From positions 448,001 to 512,000 of the forward strand of contig CAWKHF010000007.1 of the NCBI GenBank assembly GCA_963849325.1: a stretch of 64,000 bases of DNA, in the 5' to 3' direction. Positions 25,010 to 30,682 of the stretch are shown here, piece after piece. The position numbers were made by a program, and so were the translations under genes. The notes beneath the pieces are model-generated. The model was not told where the DNA came from and made no database searches. It worked only from the letters and a program-made list of their open reading frames with translations. Every line of letters starts with the position of its first letter. Within the stretch, counting starts at the first letter, position 1. This DNA comes from an uncultured Planctomycetota bacterium (lineage in GTDB: Bacteria > Planctomycetota > Planctomycetia > Gemmatales > Gemmataceae).

Positions 25010-27511
25010 CTAAATCGAAGTTCGCTCCGGCAGCCACGCCAGGCCGAAGTGCGTCACGCGCACGTCCGCCTTGCGCGGCTTGACTTCGATCGGCGCCGCT
25101 TCCTCGCCGACGCGCTTCCATTTCTCGTGGATCTCCGCCAGTTTGGAGTAGTAGTCTCCGGTTATTTTGCGTATCTTTTCCTCCTTGCCATTGGACCGGG
25201 CTGCCGTCGGCTTCGGCGTGGCGAACGACACCAGCCAGTCCCAGAAGGAGCCGTTGGACTTCGGCGTCGCCGGGTCGGCCGGTAGCTCGCTGTCCAGCGC
25301 CTCGAACTTCGGCCGAAACTTCGCCTTGGTCATCTCGATCGCCTGCCGTGCTTCCTCGACGGCGGCGGCGTGGCAGCGCTGACGAAACGCCTCCGCGCTC
25401 TCGCCCGGCTCGCTCACCAACTCCAGGGTGCGATTCTGCAAGAGGGACAACTTTTGCGTGCTGTACAGGTAGTCGGCGAAGGCTCGTTCCAGCGTCTTCA
25501 GCTTCCGCCCGGTGTCCACGCTGGTAGGCACGTTGGCCCAGCGCACGCCGGGCAGCGGCCGCGACTCCATCGGTTCGCCAATGCTCCTTCCCTTGGCCCA
25601 ATCGACGGGGCGTCCCGGCTCGCTGGGCACCGCCAGCAGCCGGACAATCTGACGATGCTCCTTGCCCTTTTTCTTGTCGATGAGGAAGACGACCTCGGCG
25701 AAGCCGAGCAAATGTGGCTCATACGTCGACCGCGCCGCCGGCGATCCGGCCAGCCGCCGGCAAGTAGAACTGGGTCACGTCCGGCGGCAGCACCGGCGGC
25801 AAGCTGTCGTTGCTGGAGGCGGGCGCGGCCGAGTCCGTCTCCGGGACGAGTGTGGCCATCGGAGCCTCGGCGCGCGGCAAGCCGGCGCGGAATTGCTGAT
25901 CGCGCAGGCCGGCGAAGCCGAGTTTCCAGACACGTTCGCCGCACTGCGGGCAACGATCCGTCACGTCCGGGCCGTCCAGCGCGGCGTGACAGTTGCGACA
26001 CAAGGGGATGGCCCGCGGCGGCATTTGCTGCTGCTGCTTGAGGTCGTGCATCAGCTTCCGCGACTTGCTCGCGCGTCAGCGGGCCGCGCAGCAGCGACAG
26101 CGCCCAGCGCGTCTGGAATACCAGCGGCGCCGCTCGGTGGATGTCGTGCATCAGGAAGACGCGGTTGCTCAGCGACGAGATGACGGTCTCCAGGTAGGAG
26201 CGATCCGTCAGCGAACCCTGCTCCGCCGCCACGCTCTCCAGCCCGTCGAGCAGGCGCATCTTGTCGCGCTCGGTTTGCAGCTTGCCGACGAACCAGGTGC
26301 CGGCGTTGGACAGCGCCTTGTAGTCGAGATCCACCGGGTTTTGCGTCGCCAGCAGTACGCCGACGCCGAAGGCGCGGGCCTGCTTGAGCAGCGTCAACAG
26401 CGGCTTTTTGGTCGGCGGGTTGGCCGGGTGCGGCGGCAGGTAGCCGAACACCTCATCGAAGTAGACCAGGGCACGCAGGTCCGTCGTGCCCGGCTGCTTG
26501 CGCGTCCAGCTCAGCACCTCTTCGAGCAGCAGCGTCGTGAAGAACATCCGCTGCCGGTCATCCAGATGAGCGACATAAAAGATCAACTGTTGCGGTTTGC
26601 CGCCGCGATAGAGCATGGCCGACAGGTCGAGCGGCTCGCCGGTCGTCCAGGTGCGGAAGCCGGGGGCGGCGAGGACGTTGTTCAGCGTCGAGGCGAAGCG
26701 CAGCCGCTCCTTGGCGGGGAAGAACGTCTCCAGGTTGTAGGCGCCCATCATGCGAATGGGCGGGTCCTGGATAGCCAGGATGAGGCCGGCCAGGTCGAGG
26801 TTTTTCTTTTGCTCCCAGGCGTGCAGCAGCAGATGGGCGATGAGGATGTGTTCGCGCGACTGCATCGTCTCGCCGGCGATGCCGGTCAGGCCGAGCAGGG
26901 CGCTGGCGGTGGCCTCGGCCTTCTCGGTCAGGGCTTCCGCGCGGCAGGTCGCCCTGCGGAGCGGTGAAACTGCCGAGGATGGACAGCGACAGGCCCGCCT
27001 CGCTGCCCGGCGTGTAGATGCGCCAGGCCGCCGCCTCCTTGACGCCGCGAATGCGTTCCGGCTTCTGAAACGTCTCCTCCAGCCCCTTCCGCCACCGCGC
27101 CGCCAACTGCTCGGCGTATGCGCGGCGCGACAGGTTCTTTTGCTGGGCGTCCTGCTCGTTGACCCAGTGCTCGATGGCGGCCGGGTCGAGGTCGGGGAAT
27201 TGCAACAGCAGGTTCGTCAGGTCGCCCTTGGGGTCGATGAGGATGCAGGGGATGTGATCGATGACCGCCTCTTCGAGAATGCTGATGGCCAGGCCGGTCT
27301 TGCCCGAGCCGGTCATGCCGACGATGACGCCGTGCGTCGTCAGGTCGCGGGCATCGTACATGACGAACTTGTCCGGCCGCACCGTCCGCGTGGCCAGGTC
27401 GTATTCGCGGCCGAGATAGAAGCAGGCCGGTTGCTCGATGTCGAAGGGAGCGGGAGCGGGCGTCGCCGGGGCGGCGGTCGGAATGTTGTCGGCCACGGGC
27501 TTGGTCTCCAT
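25010..27511 (-). CDS. HerA/FtsK-like ATPase (DUF87/DUF853-like) with internal Zn ribbon, frameshifted
   Basis: LTTHGVIVGMTGSGKT, ILIDPKGD, YFDEVFGY, LATQNPVDLDYK; CRNC..CPQC. Confidence 0.85.
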
Positions 27512-27656
27512 GCCAGATTGTCGGCGTGCCGTATTATGCGGAGTGCCGGCGGCGTTGCCAAGGTCGATGACGGGACGGCAAGGCGAGGCGGGCTGGCTTC
27601 GCGGGGCGCTCTTCGGGTATAACGTGGGCGAATTCCAGAAAACAAGGAGGTGACGG

Positions 27657-28787
27657 ATGAACGTCCATCCCCGCAAGGCGCCGCTCGCTCTGATCGCCCT
27701 GTCCGTGCTCGCGGCGGGCGCGGCTCGGGCGCTCTGCGCGACGAGACATGGGTCCGGCGGCGGATCGAGCAAATCAAGGACAGCGACACCAACGCCTGGC
27801 GCAAGGTCCCCTGGGCATCGTCGCTGCTCGCAGCGCGGCGCCTCGGCGAACGCGAGAAGAAGCCAATCTTCCTGTTCACCCACGACGGCAACATCGACAC
27901 GGGCCGCTGCTGAAACGGCGCCCGCGACATGAGGGTGAGTTCACTCTCCGACGACCGTGTCATCGGCCTGATTAGCAAGTATTTCGTGCCGGCCTGGCTG
28001 TCGCGCGACGACTACCAGCTCGAATCGCGGAGCCAGGCCGAGCGGGACGAACTGGAGCGCATCGATGCCGAGCGTCGCAAGCGCGGCCTGGAGGGCGGCA
28101 CCGTCTGCGTATTCGTCCTCGACGCGGACGGCAGCGTGCTGGCGACGCAGCGCGTGCAGCTCGCTTGCCAGCCCGAGAACTTGCTGCCGTTCCTTACCCG
28201 CATCATCGCGGACAAACACCTGACGCCGCGCGATGCCGAGGCGATCCGCGCCGGCGCTACCCGTCCAGCCGCGATCAAGCCGAAGACGGAGGGCGGCCGG
28301 CTCATCCACGTCTGGACGCGCTGCGACCAGGGCAGCAACCGCGGCCTGAGCAACGATCGCATCGAATTGACGGCGGCGGAGTGGAAAGCGTTCCTGCCGG
28401 CCGCGGACGCCCGCCCGGGATCGTCGTGGCGCATCCCGGACGAGACTGCACAGAAGCTATTCCGCTACTGCTATCCTCCCGGCCCGCACTGGGACGTGAA
28501 GGCCAGCAAGGTGCTCAACAGTACGCTGCGGATCACGCTCGTTGCTGTCTCTACACGAGAGATACGCCTGTGCGCTGGAGGGCGGGCTGGAACTGAGCTT
28601 TCCGCACACGGGCAAGTCGGTGGATGGCCGCGTCACGGCCCATTTCGTGGGGGTGGCGAATGTCAATCCCGGCAAGCAAGCGCTCACGTCGCTGGCGCTG
28701 GTTTCCGAGCAGGCGGACTATGTTTGGTACTGGCAGGGCAAGCCGCAGCCGATCCAGATGCGCATCGCCCTGGAACTGGAGCCGTAG
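27657..28787 (+). CDS. Candidate secreted thioredoxin-fold selenoprotein (SelN-like C-U motif); in-frame TGA at 27911
   Basis: GGAGG SD, signal peptide, VPW..L..A....KKPIFLF..DG..DTGRC-TGA-NGARDMRVSSLSDDRVIGLISKYFVPAW in one frame; two apparent indels elsewhere. Confidence 0.65.
27914..27958 (+). promoter_or_regulatory. Putative bacterial SECIS hairpin
   Basis: GAGGGTG-AGTT-CACTCTC stem-loop (27931-27948); loop begins 24 nt after the UGA with G at loop position 2. Confidence 0.5.
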
Positions 28788-28805
28788 AGCGAGCGGACAG
28801 CACTC

Positions 28806-28862
28806 GTCGGAGCCCGCAGCGTCAGCCAGGGACGTTCCCTCGCTGACGCTGCGGGTCCCGAC
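28806..28862. repeat. REP-like palindrome, family B
   Basis: gtcggagcccgcagcgtcagccaggg ... ccctcgctgacgctgcgggtcccgac between convergent genes. Confidence 0.85.
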
Positions 28863-28885
28863 CACAAGGTTGAGTCCCCTCGCTT

Positions 28886-29280
28886 TTATCGTGATACTCG
28901 ACTGATGACGTTTCTCTTCCCTATTTGCACTCCGTATACGACTTCTTTCTCCACTTTCCTACCCCAACGATCCTGTAGGGAGAGAGCCACCCGGCAGCGG
29001 AAAAGATGGGGATTTCCTGGCTCTGCGTGGAATCGACCGTCAAGAAGCTCAGGAGGCGATAACCCGCCTTCCAGTCGGGATCGTGGCCCTGAATCGGCTG
29101 GCCGGGGTCGGCGAACTTGTCGGGCGATTCGCCTCGACTCCAGGAATCGAGGAATGCTTCCACGACTTTCTCGGCCTTATCCATCGTTTGCTGGGGAGAG
29201 CTTTTTCCGCAGCCCTGGACCATCAAGGCCGAGAGAATCATCGTGGCATGGAACAGGACGTAACCGGCGTTCTTGAGCAT
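28886..29280 (-). CDS. Small lipoprotein partner of DUF1559 gene, one frameshift
   Basis: Lipobox VQGC, AFLDSWSRGE, DPDWKAGYRL; continues in other frame to TAA 28886. Confidence 0.7.
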
Positions 29281-29319: not shown

Positions 29320-30249
29320 TCATGGCTCGGGGACCACCTGACCGTCGTTCCGGCACGATAACTTCTGCAGGGTATCCATATCGATGGAGTTGGACAGCGA
29401 AATCACGTGTCCGTCGGAAAAAAGAAACTGACAGATCCCCGTGTGCCAGCTGCCGAATTTGCAGTGAAATGGGCCGACCAGATCATTGGATCCTTGACCC
29501 AGGTTCCATTTGGTTTGACCGCCGATGCGAGAGAAGTTACGAGGAAAGTCTCCGTTCCAGATCGCGCCTTCTCCCCACGTCGGACCGCTCTGGCCCCACA
29601 TGCTCTGGACGGAATGTTTCTCGCCGACGAGAAAGGTCTGGCTCGTGCCGTCGGTGATGTCTTTCAGGGCCGTCTGCGATTGCGAGGACGTGACCTGACC
29701 GCTGCCATCGACCTGGGCGTTGGCATAGCACATCGCTCCCTGGCACAAGGGATGATCCACGATGGCGTTGTAGAACTGGCCGCCGTTGCAAGCGTAGTCC
29801 CCCTGCGACCCGTAATGTTCCTGCGAATCGGGGATGCCGGTACTGGACACCTCGTACATCGTACTCGGCATGGAGATGCTGCGTCGGCTCGGACAAACGT
29901 ACGTCCGCACGAACGCATTCTGCACAAGGGGCGTCTGTTCGTAATAGTTCCTGGTGAGATCCCACTGGTTATAAAGAGCGCTCTGCTCCAGATAGGGGAG
30001 AATGAGCACGAACCAGGTGGCGTGTTGAGGCCCCACGCGACTGGGAGGCAAAGCCTTGTACGTGTCGTGATAGCTGTGGATGGCCAGGCCCATTTGCTTG
30101 AGGTTGTTGCCGCACTGCATCCGCGCGGCGGACTCGCGGACCTTCTGGACGGCTGGTAACAGCAAGCCGATCAGCACCGCGATGATGGCGATGACGACCA
30201 ACAGCTCAATGAGCGTGAAGGCACGGCGCCGTGGAGGAGAATGGAACAT
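29320..30249 (-). CDS. DUF1559 domain protein with prepilin-type N-terminal cleavage/methylation motif
   Basis: AFTLIELLVVIAIIAVLIGLLLPAVQKVRESAAR.QC.NNLKQ, DITDGTSQTFLVGEK, HTGICQFLFSDGHV. Confidence 0.95.
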   Translation of the reverse strand: MFHSPPRRRAFTLIELLVVIAIIAVLIGLLLPAVQKVRESAARMQCGNNLKQMGLAIHSYHDTYKALPPSRVGPQHATWFVLILPYLEQSALYNQWDLTRNYYEQTPLVQNAFVRTYVCPSRRSISMPSTMYEVSSTGIPDSQEHYGSQGDYACNGGQFYNAIVDHPLCQGAMCYANAQVDGSGQVTSSQSQTALKDITDGTSQTFLVGEKHSVQSMWGQSGPTWGEGAIWNGDFPRNFSRIGGQTKWNLGQGSNDLVGPFHCKFGSWHTGICQFLFSDGHVISLSNSIDMDTLQKLSCRNDGQVVPEP

Positions 30250-30682
30250 GGTCGCTCCTTTCGCAGGGTGCGGGAACAAGGCCGGCGGGCCCCGAAGGTA
30301 CACGCCGCTGAACGAGGGGAACGAGTTGACCACCCGAGGGTCAGAAACGAAGAGGAACTGTCACGCAGTTAGAGCGAGAAGCGCAGTCAGGAGAAGCCCG
30401 GCTTGTGGAAAGCCGCCGAGCCGAGAGAAGAGTTCGAGAATCGCATCGCGGGAACCATATTGGACCCGTCACCAACGACAGCCGCCATGCCGGTTTGCAA
30501 GTGAAGGCATCGTAGAGATACGAGGAGCGAACGTCAAGGCGCGGGCGGCGAAGCGCTCCCGAGACTCGACGCCGCGGGCGCTCGGGTTTCGAGAGAGAGC
30601 GATAACCTGCTGCCTTCCGGAAGCGGATTGCCTAACATACCTCTAGAAGTGAACCCCCGCGTCGTGGAGAGGACATCTGGCC

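What the first reader, a model, noticed from the sequence alone, without database searches (positions are those of the whole stretch)
27657..28787. Candidate secreted SelN-like selenoprotein hidden as two ORFs: in-frame Cys-UGA plus SECIS-like hairpin
Seen: the ORF ending KKPIFLFTHDGNIDTGRC stops at TGA 27911-27913, and the same frame continues AAC GGC GCC CGC GAC ATG into the 27929 ORF, which has no obvious SD. Read through, it gives DTGRC-U-NGARDMRVSSLSDDRVIGLISKYFVPAW. A hairpin GAGGGTG-AGTT-CACTCTC has its loop 24 nt after the UGA with G at loop position 2. A signal peptide starts at 27657 (one indel away). Knowledge: the stop falls where a thioredoxin-fold redox motif sits; animal selenoprotein N reads DDQSCUGSGRTLR..L....I...L...F...W with similar spacing; bacterial SECIS elements are hairpins just 3' of the UGA with a G early in the apical loop. 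Inference: an exported CU-motif redox protein recoded with selenocysteine, which pipelines would split.
Basis: partly seen in the sequence, partly recalled or inferred. Interest (0 to 1): 0.85.

Follow-up and report, generated by a model that had tools for sequence, protein, structure and literature searches.

The report
Unannotated exported Cys-Sec thioredoxin-fold selenoprotein
The apparent stop codon almost certainly encodes selenocysteine in the active site of a secreted thioredoxin-like protein, from a large Planctomycetota family that public annotation records only as truncated hypothetical proteins.

Summary
Observation confirmed. TGA 27911-27913 lies in frame between two ORFs. A second indel near 28570 went unmentioned.

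The TGA is conserved. 141 of 150 listed matches in 201 same-family genomes carry one in-frame TGA. So do 24 of 24 listed matches from other families of the phylum and 23 of 23 named loci. Protein conservation runs across it: FLFTHDGNIxTGRC-U-(N/G)GA.

The 7-bp hairpin is kept, with compensatory changes in 3 of 7 pairs. The genome holds tRNA-Sec, selA, selB and selD. Gene callers start 105 of the best 150 database relatives at the Met six residues after Sec.

The AlphaFold2 model (pLDDT 89) shows a DsbH/DUF255/UAS-type thioredoxin fold with Sec at the N-cap of helix 1, plus a beta-barrel of no clear kin. hhalign puts the Sec on the Sec of the VPGUxxT family, but NCBIfam scores are far below cut-off.

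The family is in neither Pfam nor NCBIfam, nor in a 2026 list of 119 prokaryotic selenoprotein families. The two frameshifts are probably assembly errors, since rpoB, gyrA and selA are broken too. Homology to animal SelN could not be tested.

The parts
27510..27537 (+). Promoter-like site (ATGCCA-16-TATTAT) in the divergent intergenic region upstream of the gene
   Evidence: Consensus scan, 9 of 12 matches. This is a pattern match only.
27644..27650 (+). Shine-Dalgarno-like AAGGAGG, 6 nt before the start codon
   Evidence: Read directly from the sequence.
27657..27724 (+). Start codon and signal-peptide-like N-terminus (MNVHPRKAPLALIALSVLAAGAA...), in the frame of ATG 27657
   Evidence: All 27 full-length homologues start with M, basic residues and a hydrophobic stretch about 80 residues before Sec. 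This is by inspection, not by a signal-peptide predictor.
27715..27733 (+). First frame break: 1 nt missing relative to orthologues. The alignment puts it after 27724, but placement is approximate.
   Evidence: MAFFT alignment to L016, L017 and L018. Three-frame translation.
27734..27910 (+). Coding sequence for the mature N-terminus up to ...FLFTHDGNIDTGRC (helices and strand 1 of the thioredoxin fold)
   Evidence: Translation, alignment A1, model.
27911..27913 (+). UGA read as selenocysteine
   Evidence: TGA is invariant in 27 of 27 aligned homologue DNAs. 141 of 150 listed family matches carry one in-frame TGA. hhalign places it on the Sec of VPGUxxT proteins.
27931..27948 (+). SECIS-type hairpin inside the ORF: 7-bp stem (27931-27937 / 27942-27948) and AGTT loop (27938-27941). 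It overlaps the codons for M-R-V-S-S-L-S.
   Evidence: 93.1% of 189 cells are paired, against 34-65% when the partner is slid. 3 of 7 pairs carry compensatory changes (13 cells). 0 of 500 shuffles reach the covariation score. RNAalifold keeps 5 of the 7 pairs.
27914..28569 (+). Coding sequence after Sec: the rest of the thioredoxin-like domain and the first part of the C-terminal beta domain
28566..28575 (+). Second frame break: 1 extra nt relative to orthologues. The alignment puts it at about 28570, but placement is approximate.
28571..28787 (+). C-terminal coding part (...LEGGLELSFPHTGKSVDGRVTAHFVG...IALELEP) and the TAG stop at 28785-28787
   Evidence: ORF 28542..28787. Alignment to orthologue C-termini.
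28806..28862 (+). 27-nt inverted repeat (89% complementary, 3-nt loop) 19 nt after the stop. It may be a transcript-end hairpin, but no T-run follows.
   Evidence: The terminator scan found none.

Best explanation
This is one gene of about 375 codons for a Sec-pathway-exported protein. Its UGA at 27911 is decoded as selenocysteine.

Inferred recoding mechanism: SelB carrying Sec-tRNA(Sec) binds the in-ORF hairpin, whose loop lies 24 nt 3' of the UGA, and delivers Sec to the ribosome.

Predicted protein: a cleavable signal peptide, then a DsbH/DUF255/UAS-type thioredoxin fold, then a roughly 170-residue beta-barrel-like domain. Sec sits at the N-cap of helix 1. That is the place of the nucleophilic Cys of CxxC. 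Ala occupies the second Cys position, and a Cys lies immediately before Sec.

Inferred chemistry: a periplasmic redox enzyme that cycles through a vicinal Cys-Sec selenenylsulfide, as recalled for the GCUG end of thioredoxin reductase. Substrate and reductant are unknown.

The two frameshifts in this copy are most likely assembly indels, not decay.

Shown here: conservation of the TGA, of the frame and of the hairpin; the Sec machinery genes; the predicted fold. Inferred: actual Sec insertion, export and the redox chemistry.
For: TGA conservation:
- 129 of 201 same-family genomes match the read-through protein, including 8 of 8 other genomes of the same genus. 141 of the 150 listed matches carry one in-frame TGA.
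- In a phylum sample, 22 of 300 other genomes match at E <= 1e-8. All 24 listed matches outside the own genome carry one TGA.
- 23 of 23 loci from named MAG records read GRCU(N/G)GA.

One reading frame across the TGA:
- In alignment A1 (23 sequences) the invariant columns lie on both sides of Sec: W48, P65, F67, F69, G73, G78, R79, Sec81, G83, A84, R88.

TGA is still a stop codon in these organisms:
- 13 of 27 full-length homologues end at a TGA.

Hairpin:
- 93.1% of cells are paired. 3 of 7 pairs have compensatory changes. 0 of 500 shuffles reach the covariation score.
- Coding changes move together in both L032 and L034: Val to Thr comes with Leu to Phe, which keeps the stem.
- The GCTUNNG paralogue group has its own stem with compensatory changes.

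Sec machinery in the own genome:
- tRNA-Sec at 72 bits, called SeC with anticodon tca by ARAGORN.
- selA at 286.7 bits, selB at 313.7 bits and selD at 386.9 bits, each over its cut-off.
- selA is found in 184 of 201 family genomes.

Cys at the Sec position:
- P0192, L053 and L056.

Annotation artefact:
- All of the best 120 hits are 229-294 aa and cover only 71-76% of the query, the part after the TGA.
- 105 of the best 150 representatives begin at profile position 86-92.

Fold:
- pLDDT 89, pTM 0.84. Sec81 lies between strand 66-71 and helix 82-89.
- hhalign to VPGUxxT members: probability 91.4% over 65 columns, Sec aligned to Sec.

Assembly quality:
- rpoB is in at least 4 frame pieces, a gyrA copy in 8, selA in 3.
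Against: - There is no direct evidence of selenium incorporation or of expression.
- No sequencing run could be listed, so neither the TGA nor the two indels was checked in reads.
- The hairpin alone is thermodynamically ordinary (z = -0.71). It matches no Rfam family.
- The outer two stem pairs are unpaired in 4-5 of 27 sequences.
- Most non-Sec relatives do not carry Cys at the Sec position. They have Gly, Asp, Pro, Glu, Leu or Ala, usually keeping the preceding Cys. The classic Sec/Cys pairing is therefore only partly met, and the preceding Cys may matter on its own.
- 9 of the 17 family genomes without a selA match still have matches to the protein. Those 9 genomes are 68-95% complete.
- selA and selB are themselves frame-broken in this assembly.
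- Signal peptides were judged by eye only.
Confidence: 0.92

Rival explanations
1. The family is real, but this copy is a decaying pseudogene. The two frameshifts would then be genuine mutations, so no full-length protein is made in this organism.
For: Two single-base indels lie within 1.1 kb relative to three orthologues. No reads were available to check them.
Against: Essential genes in the same assembly are broken in the same way: rpoB in at least 4 frame pieces and one gyrA copy in 8. selA is in 3 pieces and selB is split. The neighbouring HerA-like gene also changes frame. The assembly is 84.7% complete in only 14 contigs. Apart from the two indels, the sequence stays 75% identical in protein to the nearest orthologue, with no other stop.
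Confidence: 0.07
2. These are two separate genes, or a gene whose UGA simply terminates. That would give a small exported N-terminal peptide plus a cytoplasmic protein started at ATG 27929. Alternatively the UGA is read through with Cys or Trp rather than Sec.
For: Gene callers consistently produce the 27929-type ORF. The Met after the TGA is conserved in the close orthologues.
Against: The thioredoxin fold is split by the TGA, with strand 1 before it and helix 1 after it. There is no Shine-Dalgarno sequence before 27929. That Met is Ile or Leu in 6 of the 27 aligned homologue DNAs, while the TGA and hairpin remain. The N-terminal 80 residues are conserved in the same frame in all homologues. 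The genome has the full Sec machinery. The UGA sits at the redox-active position, aligned to the Sec of a catalogued selenoprotein family.
Confidence: 0.03
3. The organism reads TGA as a sense codon generally, through a reassigned genetic code. No selenocysteine would then be involved.
For: None specific to this case. An open frame across one TGA is what such a code would also produce.
Against: 13 of 27 homologues end their own reading frame at a TGA. Matches carry exactly one internal TGA, always in the same column. A dedicated tRNA-Sec and selA, selB and selD are present.
Confidence: 0.01

Closest known systems
VPGUxxT family thioredoxin-like selenoproteins (NCBIfam NF041382/NF041383; listed as 'hypothetical protein OS_HP5' in Table 1 of PMC13188914)
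   Same: A bacterial selenoprotein with Sec at the first position of the thioredoxin CxxC site. hhalign of A1 against six members gives probability 91.4% and E 9e-7 over 65 columns, with Sec aligned to Sec. The family is also frequent in Planctomycetota: 30 of 301 sampled genomes score over the cut-off.
   Different: Scores are 12.8-21.1 bits against cut-offs of 275 and 350. The motif is GRC-U-xGA, not VPG-U-xTC. There is a 5-residue insertion before the motif. The second redox position is Ala, not Cys. A Cys precedes Sec. In the type 2 members I aligned, the thioredoxin-like part is followed by a region with a conserved FAMxCFWxGE segment, which I recall as MsrA-like. Here a beta-barrel-like domain follows instead. 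No member over cut-off was found in the own genome.
DsbH / DUF255 (Pfam PF03190 Thioredox_DsbH), Thioredoxin_7 and UAS-domain thioredoxin folds
   Different: The sequence is below Pfam's threshold: 17 bits against 27 for the paralogue L038, and no hit at all for the window's protein or L019. The active site is Cys-Sec-x-x-Ala rather than CxxC. An extra C-terminal domain is present.
Animal selenoprotein N (SELENON/SEPN1)
   Same: Adjacent Cys-Sec inside a domain that the literature calls thioredoxin-like, facing an extracytoplasmic or luminal compartment. SelN has an SCUG motif at Sec462, and Arg466, four residues later, is pathogenic when mutated (passages of PMC12839072 and PMC8967691). 15 of 27 homologues here read (C/A)-U-G. 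The window's copy has Arg four residues after Sec.
   Different: No EF-hand or other Pfam domain was found. Export is by signal peptide, not a type II membrane anchor. The SECIS is a bacterial in-ORF hairpin, not a 3'-UTR element. Sequence or fold homology could not be tested here. Two region searches seeded with a relative returned only family members: 1 protein from 12 candidates and 8 from 284.
C-terminal GCUG redox centre of mammalian thioredoxin reductase (recalled; PMC12839072 mentions it for comparison with SelN)
   Same: Vicinal Cys-Sec able to form an eight-membered selenenylsulfide ring. This is the chemistry I infer here.
   Different: In thioredoxin reductase the pair sits on a flexible C-terminal tail of a flavoenzyme. 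Here it sits at the N-cap of helix 1 of a thioredoxin fold.

Membership tests
Bacterial selenoprotein gene (SelB/bSECIS-dependent UGA recoding) | In-frame UGA conserved among orthologues, with coding conservation on both sides in one frame | tested here: met
   TGA is invariant in 27 of 27 aligned DNAs. 141 of 150 listed matches carry one TGA. Invariant residues lie on both sides.
Bacterial selenoprotein gene (SelB/bSECIS-dependent UGA recoding) | Stem-loop just 3' of the UGA with a G early in the apical loop. The published bSECIS distance window is recalled, not checked. | tested here: met
   The hairpin loop starts 24 nt after the UGA and reads A-G-T-T. 93.1% of cells are paired, 3 of 7 pairs are compensatory, and 0 of 500 shuffles reach the score. 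Caveats: ordinary stability and no Rfam match.
Bacterial selenoprotein gene (SelB/bSECIS-dependent UGA recoding) | The genome encodes tRNA-Sec, SelA, SelB and SelD | tested here: met
   All four score over the family cut-offs. selA and selB are split across frames in this error-rich assembly.
Bacterial selenoprotein gene (SelB/bSECIS-dependent UGA recoding) | Homologues with Cys at the Sec position | tested here: met
   P0192 (GRS-C-GDS), L053 (GRS-C-AGS) and L056 (SA-C-GNG). Most other non-Sec relatives have Gly, Asp, Pro, Glu, Leu or Ala there, so the pairing is only partial.
Bacterial selenoprotein gene (SelB/bSECIS-dependent UGA recoding) | Selenium demonstrably incorporated (75Se labelling or mass spectrometry) | not testable with these tools
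   This needs an experiment. No sequencing run was listed either.
Thioredoxin fold, DsbH/DUF255/UAS type | Thioredoxin-like fold with the redox residue at the N-terminus of helix 1 | tested here: met
Thioredoxin fold, DsbH/DUF255/UAS type | Pfam PF03190 score at or above the gathering threshold | tested here: not met
   No hit for P0001 or L019. 17 bits against 27 for L038 and 13 bits for L044.
VPGUxxT thioredoxin-like selenoproteins (NF041382/NF041383) | NCBIfam score at or above the curated cut-off | tested here: not met
   12.8-21.1 bits against 275 and 350. The paralogue L046 scores 23.3 bits. No member over cut-off in the own genome.
VPGUxxT thioredoxin-like selenoproteins (NF041382/NF041383) | VPG-U-x-T-C motif and the family's full-length architecture | tested here: not met
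   The motif here is GRC-U-(N/G)-G-A. hhalign covers only 65 N-terminal columns. The C-terminal halves differ.
Selenoprotein N (SELENON) | Adjacent Cys-Sec (SCUG) in a thioredoxin-like domain | tested here: inconclusive
   Cys-Sec is present in 26 of 27 homologues. Sec is followed by Gly in 15 of 27 and by Asn in the window's copy. The motif is short, and a match does not show homology.
Selenoprotein N (SELENON) | Detectable sequence or fold homology to SelN | not testable with these tools
   No SelN sequence or model could be obtained. PDB sequence and fold searches listed no SelN entry. Region searches returned only family members. The atlas look-up with the Cys-form relative P0192 gave only bacterial clusters at scores of 0.83 or less.
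Selenoprotein N (SELENON) | EF-hand domain and ER type II membrane topology | tested here: not met
   No Pfam domain in L019 at E <= 1. The N-terminus is a cleavable-type signal peptide, by inspection.

The most novel reading that the evidence does not exclude
The GRC-U-xGA proteins and their paralogues would be the bacterial relatives of the catalytic domain of animal selenoprotein N. Both would share a DsbH/UAS-type thioredoxin fold with a vicinal Cys-Sec at the N-cap of helix 1.

This gives SelN's unexplained SCUG chemistry a tractable microbial model and an evolutionary origin.

In addition, the same two-domain module, with Sec lost, serves as the extracytoplasmic sensor of ECF sigma factors and Ser/Thr kinases. 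The Sec forms may therefore act on, or sense, the same periplasmic redox signal.
Probability: 0.3. Interest if true: 0.85.

Novelty: new member of a known kind. Interest (0 to 1): 0.62.

Why it matters
**Scale.** The family adds a large, uncatalogued group to the prokaryotic selenoproteome. 1650 cluster representatives at 50% identity match the profile at E <= 0.001, and 219 match at E <= 1e-30. These counts include non-Sec relatives.

**Annotation.** Public annotation is systematically wrong for these proteins. They are recorded as hypothetical proteins of about 285 aa that lack the signal peptide, half of the fold and the active site.

**Biology of the phylum.** Planctomycetota appear to export many selenoproteins into their periplasm. 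At least three paralogous Sec families occur in this one genome.

**Chemistry.** The active-site layout is Cys-Sec at the CxxC position with Ala as the second residue. No thioredoxin-fold entry in the 2026 inventory has that layout. I read Table 1 of PMC13188914 in full.

**Possible link to disease biology.** If the SelN resemblance is homology, bacteria would offer a model for an enzyme whose mechanism in human muscle disease is still unclear.

Tried and rejected
**Reads.** The look-up of sequencing runs listed no run for 27400-29000, neither DNA nor an RNA holder.

**Rfam.** At E <= 10 there were only two chance-level matches, to a miRNA and a snoRNA model, and no SECIS family.

**PDB by sequence.** With profile A1 the only hits were adenylylsulfate reductase chains at E 1.6.

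**Protein atlas.** A look-up with the natural Cys-form relative P0192 gave only hypothetical or Thioredoxin_7-type bacterial clusters at scores of 0.83 or less.

**SelN.**
- Two region searches used the relative P0274, chosen because I recalled a shared heptapeptide. They returned 1 protein from 12 candidates and 8 from 284, all family members and none named SelN. This is inconclusive.
- Paper searches for 'SelN-like', 'SELENON-like', 'SEPN1-like' and 'selenoprotein N-like' found 2 papers, both about animals.
- A search combining SelN terms with 'bacterial homolog' found no paper holding that phrase.

**Synteny.** Only 1 of the 29 homologue loci searched (L018, same genus) shares the flanking genes. 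I rejected the idea of a conserved operon.

**Co-occurrence with selA.** This is uninformative because selA is nearly universal in the family, at 184 of 201 genomes. The one genus lacking selA in 3 of 3 genomes also lacks a match in 3 of 3.

**Literature on Planctomycetota selenoproteins.**
- 4 papers hold both 'selenoprotein' and 'Gemmata'.
- Only PMC4807772 is relevant. Its candidate list, S9 Table, is a supplement I could not open.
- A broader search found nothing further of relevance.

**Earlier notes of this scan.** Look-ups by place and by sequence returned nothing.
Full report
**1. Observation**

An ORF at 27650..27913 ends ...KKPIFLFTHDGNIDTGRC at TGA 27911-27913. The ATG ORF at 27929 is in the same frame. 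Reading the TGA through gives ...TGRC-U-NGARDMRVSSLSDDRVIGLISKYFVPAW.

The hairpin GAGGGTG/AGTT/CACTCTC lies at 27931-27948. Its loop starts 24 nt after the UGA.

ATG 27657 follows AAGGAGG and opens a signal-peptide-like sequence in a different frame. Nothing comparable to that Shine-Dalgarno sequence precedes 27929.

The C-terminal 81 codons, ending at TAG 28785-28787, sit in yet another frame. In this assembly the gene is therefore interrupted three times: two single-base indels and one TGA.

By itself the hairpin is unremarkable. It folds at z = -0.71, and 46 of 200 shuffles fold at least as well.

**2. The TGA is conserved, the indels are not**

*Family sample.* I searched the read-through protein against 201 genomes of the same family.
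- 129 matched, including 8 of 8 other genomes of the same genus.
- 141 of the 150 listed matches contained exactly one in-frame TGA.
- The 9 rows without a TGA were 8 non-Sec relatives and one C-terminal piece.

*Full-length homologues.* I extracted 27 of them. Each has a start codon, a basic-then-hydrophobic N-terminus, one TGA about 80 codons in, and about 290 further codons.

*Motif.* It reads FLFTHDGN(I/M)xTGRC-U-(N/G)GA..(M/I)R..SLS. Invariant residues lie on both sides of the TGA.

*Frame.* These homologues have no frameshift at the window's two indel sites.

*TGA as a stop.* 13 of the 27 end their own frame with TGA, so TGA is still a stop codon in these organisms.

*Wider range.*
- 22 of 300 genomes from other families of the phylum match at E <= 1e-8. 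All 24 listed matches outside the own genome carry one TGA.
- 23 of 23 loci from named records read GRCU(N/G)GA. All are MAGs labelled Gemmataceae, Gemmatales, Planctomycetota or Planctomycetaceae, except three labelled Bryobacterales, Acidobacteria and Chthonomonadaceae.

**3. The hairpin behaves like a constrained RNA element**

I aligned 27 homologue DNAs from 6 nt before the TGA to 74 nt after it. The alignment has no gaps.
- The 7-bp stem is paired in 93.1% of 189 cells, against 34-65% when the 3' arm is slid by 1-3 columns.
- 3 of 7 pairs show changes on both sides (13 cells).
- 0 of 500 shuffles reach the observed covariation score or the observed percentage paired.
- RNAalifold independently keeps the inner 5 pairs.

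The stem overlaps the codons M-R-V-S-S-L-S, and coding changes move together.
- Where Val (GTG) becomes Ala (GCG), the Ser codon TCA becomes TCG.
- Where Val becomes Thr (ACG), as in L032 and L034, Leu (CTC) becomes Phe (TTC). This keeps the pairing.

A separate paralogue group (GCTUNNG) has its own stem and a CGTGA loop at a similar distance, again with compensatory changes.

Against this reading:
- The two outer pairs are unpaired in 4-5 of 27 sequences.
- No Rfam family matches.

**4. Sec machinery**

The own genome has the following.
- A tRNA-Sec at 72 bits, called SeC with anticodon tca by ARAGORN.
- Adjacent selA and selB, and selD, all over the curated cut-offs.

selA is found in 184 of 201 genomes of the family. 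The trait is thus the rule in this lineage, and co-occurrence has little discriminating power.

**5. Frameshifts**

In the same assembly:
- rpoB is split into at least 4 frame pieces.
- One gyrA copy is split into 8 pieces.
- selA is split into 3 pieces.
- The HerA-like neighbour also changes frame.
- Completeness is 84.7% in only 14 contigs.

The two indels in this gene are therefore most simply assembly errors. No reads could be obtained to confirm this. The TGA cannot be such an error, because it is present in every orthologue from other assemblies.

**6. How databases see the family**

All of the best 120 hits of the first protein search are 229-294 aa and cover only 71-76% of the query, the part after the TGA. 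Those with names are 'hypothetical protein'.

A profile search over 1.84 billion representatives found 1650 proteins at E <= 0.001, 667 at E <= 1e-10 and 219 at E <= 1e-30. By my count of the table, the best 150 divide as follows.
- 105 begin at profile position 86-92, the Met six residues after Sec.
- 29 begin further downstream.
- 16 span the Sec position.

I fetched 7 of those 16.
- P0192: a standalone 374-aa form with Cys at the Sec position.
- P0128: a standalone 373-aa form with Gly there. GGA is one step from TGA.
- P0157: a 408-aa form with Leu there and no sigma-factor region.
- P0130, P0132, P0138 and P0217: longer forms with Gly or Asp there.

**7. Non-Sec relatives are often fused to signalling modules**

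Eight further genomic non-Sec relatives (L049-L056) carry Gly, Asp, Pro, Glu, Ala or Cys at the Sec position. The long forms place the module behind signalling domains.
- P0130 and L049 sit behind ECF sigma-70 domains (Pfam Sigma70_r2 and r4_2). P0275 is named as a sigma-70 family sigma factor by its source.
- L056 sits behind a protein kinase domain (E 4e-28).

A hydrophobic stretch separates the signalling part from the module. I judged that by eye.

**8. Fold**

AlphaFold2 on alignment A1 gives pLDDT 89 and pTM 0.84.

*Residues 40-185* form a thioredoxin fold. Its best matches are:
- By Foldseek, 7tkv_B at E 2e-4.

Sec81 lies between strand 66-71 and helix 82-89. By established knowledge of the fold, that is the position of the nucleophilic Cys of CxxC.

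hhalign against six VPGUxxT proteins confirms the register. Sec aligns to their Sec, Ala84 aligns to their second Cys, and a 5-residue insertion precedes the motif.

**9. Mechanism**

- *Shown:* conservation of the TGA, frame and hairpin; the Sec machinery genes; the predicted fold.
- *Inferred, recoding:* SelB-dependent insertion of Sec at the UGA, directed by the in-ORF hairpin.
- *Inferred, location:* export by the Sec pathway.
- *Inferred, chemistry:* a periplasmic redox function in which Sec81 is the attacking residue and Cys80 resolves it as a vicinal selenenylsulfide. The canonical second Cys is replaced by Ala.
- *Unknown:* substrate and electron donor.
- *Unknown:* the gene has no conserved neighbours. 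Only 1 of the 29 loci searched shares the flanking genes.
- *A lead on function:* the non-Sec module recurs as the outer domain of sigma factors and a kinase. This suggests it recognises some periplasmic ligand or redox state.

**10. Comparison with the known**

*Pfam* gives no hit for the window's protein. A paralogue gets a sub-threshold PF03190 hit.

*NCBIfam* release 20 gives only 12.8-21.1 bits to the VPGUxxT models, against cut-offs of 275 and 350. Two paralogues in the own genome also fall short.

*VPGUxxT.* True type 2 members exist elsewhere in the phylum: 30 of 301 genomes score over the cut-off. None was found in the own genome. The relation is therefore at superfamily level and not membership.

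*The 2026 inventory.* I read Table 1 of PMC13188914 in full (parts 1 and 2 of section 7). It lists 119 prokaryotic selenoprotein families.
- None has this motif or architecture.
- Its 'CU' entries are not thioredoxin folds.
- Entries defined only by cd or PTHR identifiers could not be scanned here.

*SelN.* Passages of PMC12839072 and PMC8967691 describe a thioredoxin domain with an SCUG motif at Sec462, and Arg466 is pathogenic when mutated.
- The window's protein also has Cys-Sec and an Arg four residues later.
- 15 of 27 homologues read U-G.
- The longer resemblance is from memory only.
- I could not bring SelN into any comparison.
- Paper searches found no bacterial 'SelN-like' report.

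**11. Earlier notes of this scan**

A word search returned 12 AI notes on exported thioredoxin-fold selenoproteins in Planctomycetota.
- One names VPGUxxT as the closest family and blames an assembly error for a frame break.
- Another describes a Cys-Thr-TGA family, which fits the GCTUNNG paralogues I saw.

These are parallel leads, not independent evidence.

**12. Verdict**

This is a real, unannotated selenoprotein gene of an uncatalogued family: a new member of a well-known kind.

Points of interest:
- The size of the family.
- The systematic mis-annotation.
- The unusual Cys-Sec-x-x-Ala site.

The open question is its relation to SelN.

Noticed in passing
L045:1757-2422 (+) and L046:1296-2444 (-); own genome contig C7, outside the window: There are two further exported thioredoxin-like ORFs with one in-frame TGA each in the same genome. 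Their motifs are GCT-U-NNG and RFC-U-TNA. Neither reaches any NCBIfam cut-off. The first is also frameshifted in this assembly.
   Followed up: partly
P0130, P0275, L049:135-1724 (+), L056:372-2501 (-): Non-Sec relatives of the whole two-domain module sit behind ECF sigma-70 domains or a Ser/Thr kinase domain. In those proteins the module looks like an extracytoplasmic sensor domain.
   Followed up: partly
window 25498-27510 (-): The divergently transcribed neighbour is a HerA/FtsK-like ATPase (DUF87, E 6e-8). In this assembly its reading frame changes at least once.
   Followed up: partly
own genome: C1:334967-338611 (rpoB), C14:48379-50982 (gyrA copy), C12:1294158-1297495 (selA-selB): Essential and Sec-machinery genes are split across several frames, so the assembly carries roughly one indel per kb in these genes. 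Every frameshift in the window should be read with that in mind.
   Followed up: partly
window 28806-28862: A 27-nt inverted repeat, 89% complementary with a 3-nt loop, lies directly after the stop codon. No T-run follows it.
   Followed up: no
window 28921-29280 (-) and 29320-30333 (-): A small lipoprotein-like ORF lies next to a DUF1559 / N-terminal-methylation pseudopilin-like gene. The pair is syntenic only with the same-genus locus L018.
   Followed up: partly
L089, L090, L091: Family members reading GRCUGGA occur on MAG contigs labelled Bryobacterales, Acidobacteria and Chthonomonadaceae. This could be gene transfer or mis-binning.
   Followed up: no
L040:1381-3786 (+) and L044:1-2403 (-): Sec-containing members carry a C-terminal extension of about 430 residues. 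It gives a weak DNRLRE-domain hit of 27 bits, below the cut-off of 34.
   Followed up: no
L064 and other loci: 13 of the 36 listed rows for VPGUxxT type 2 (NF041383) in other Planctomycetota carry two in-frame TGAs. I located only the first one, in the VPG-U motif.
   Followed up: no
P0128: This is a standalone 373-aa close relative (E 5e-93) with Gly at the Sec position and the preceding Cys kept. GGA is one substitution away from TGA.
   Followed up: no
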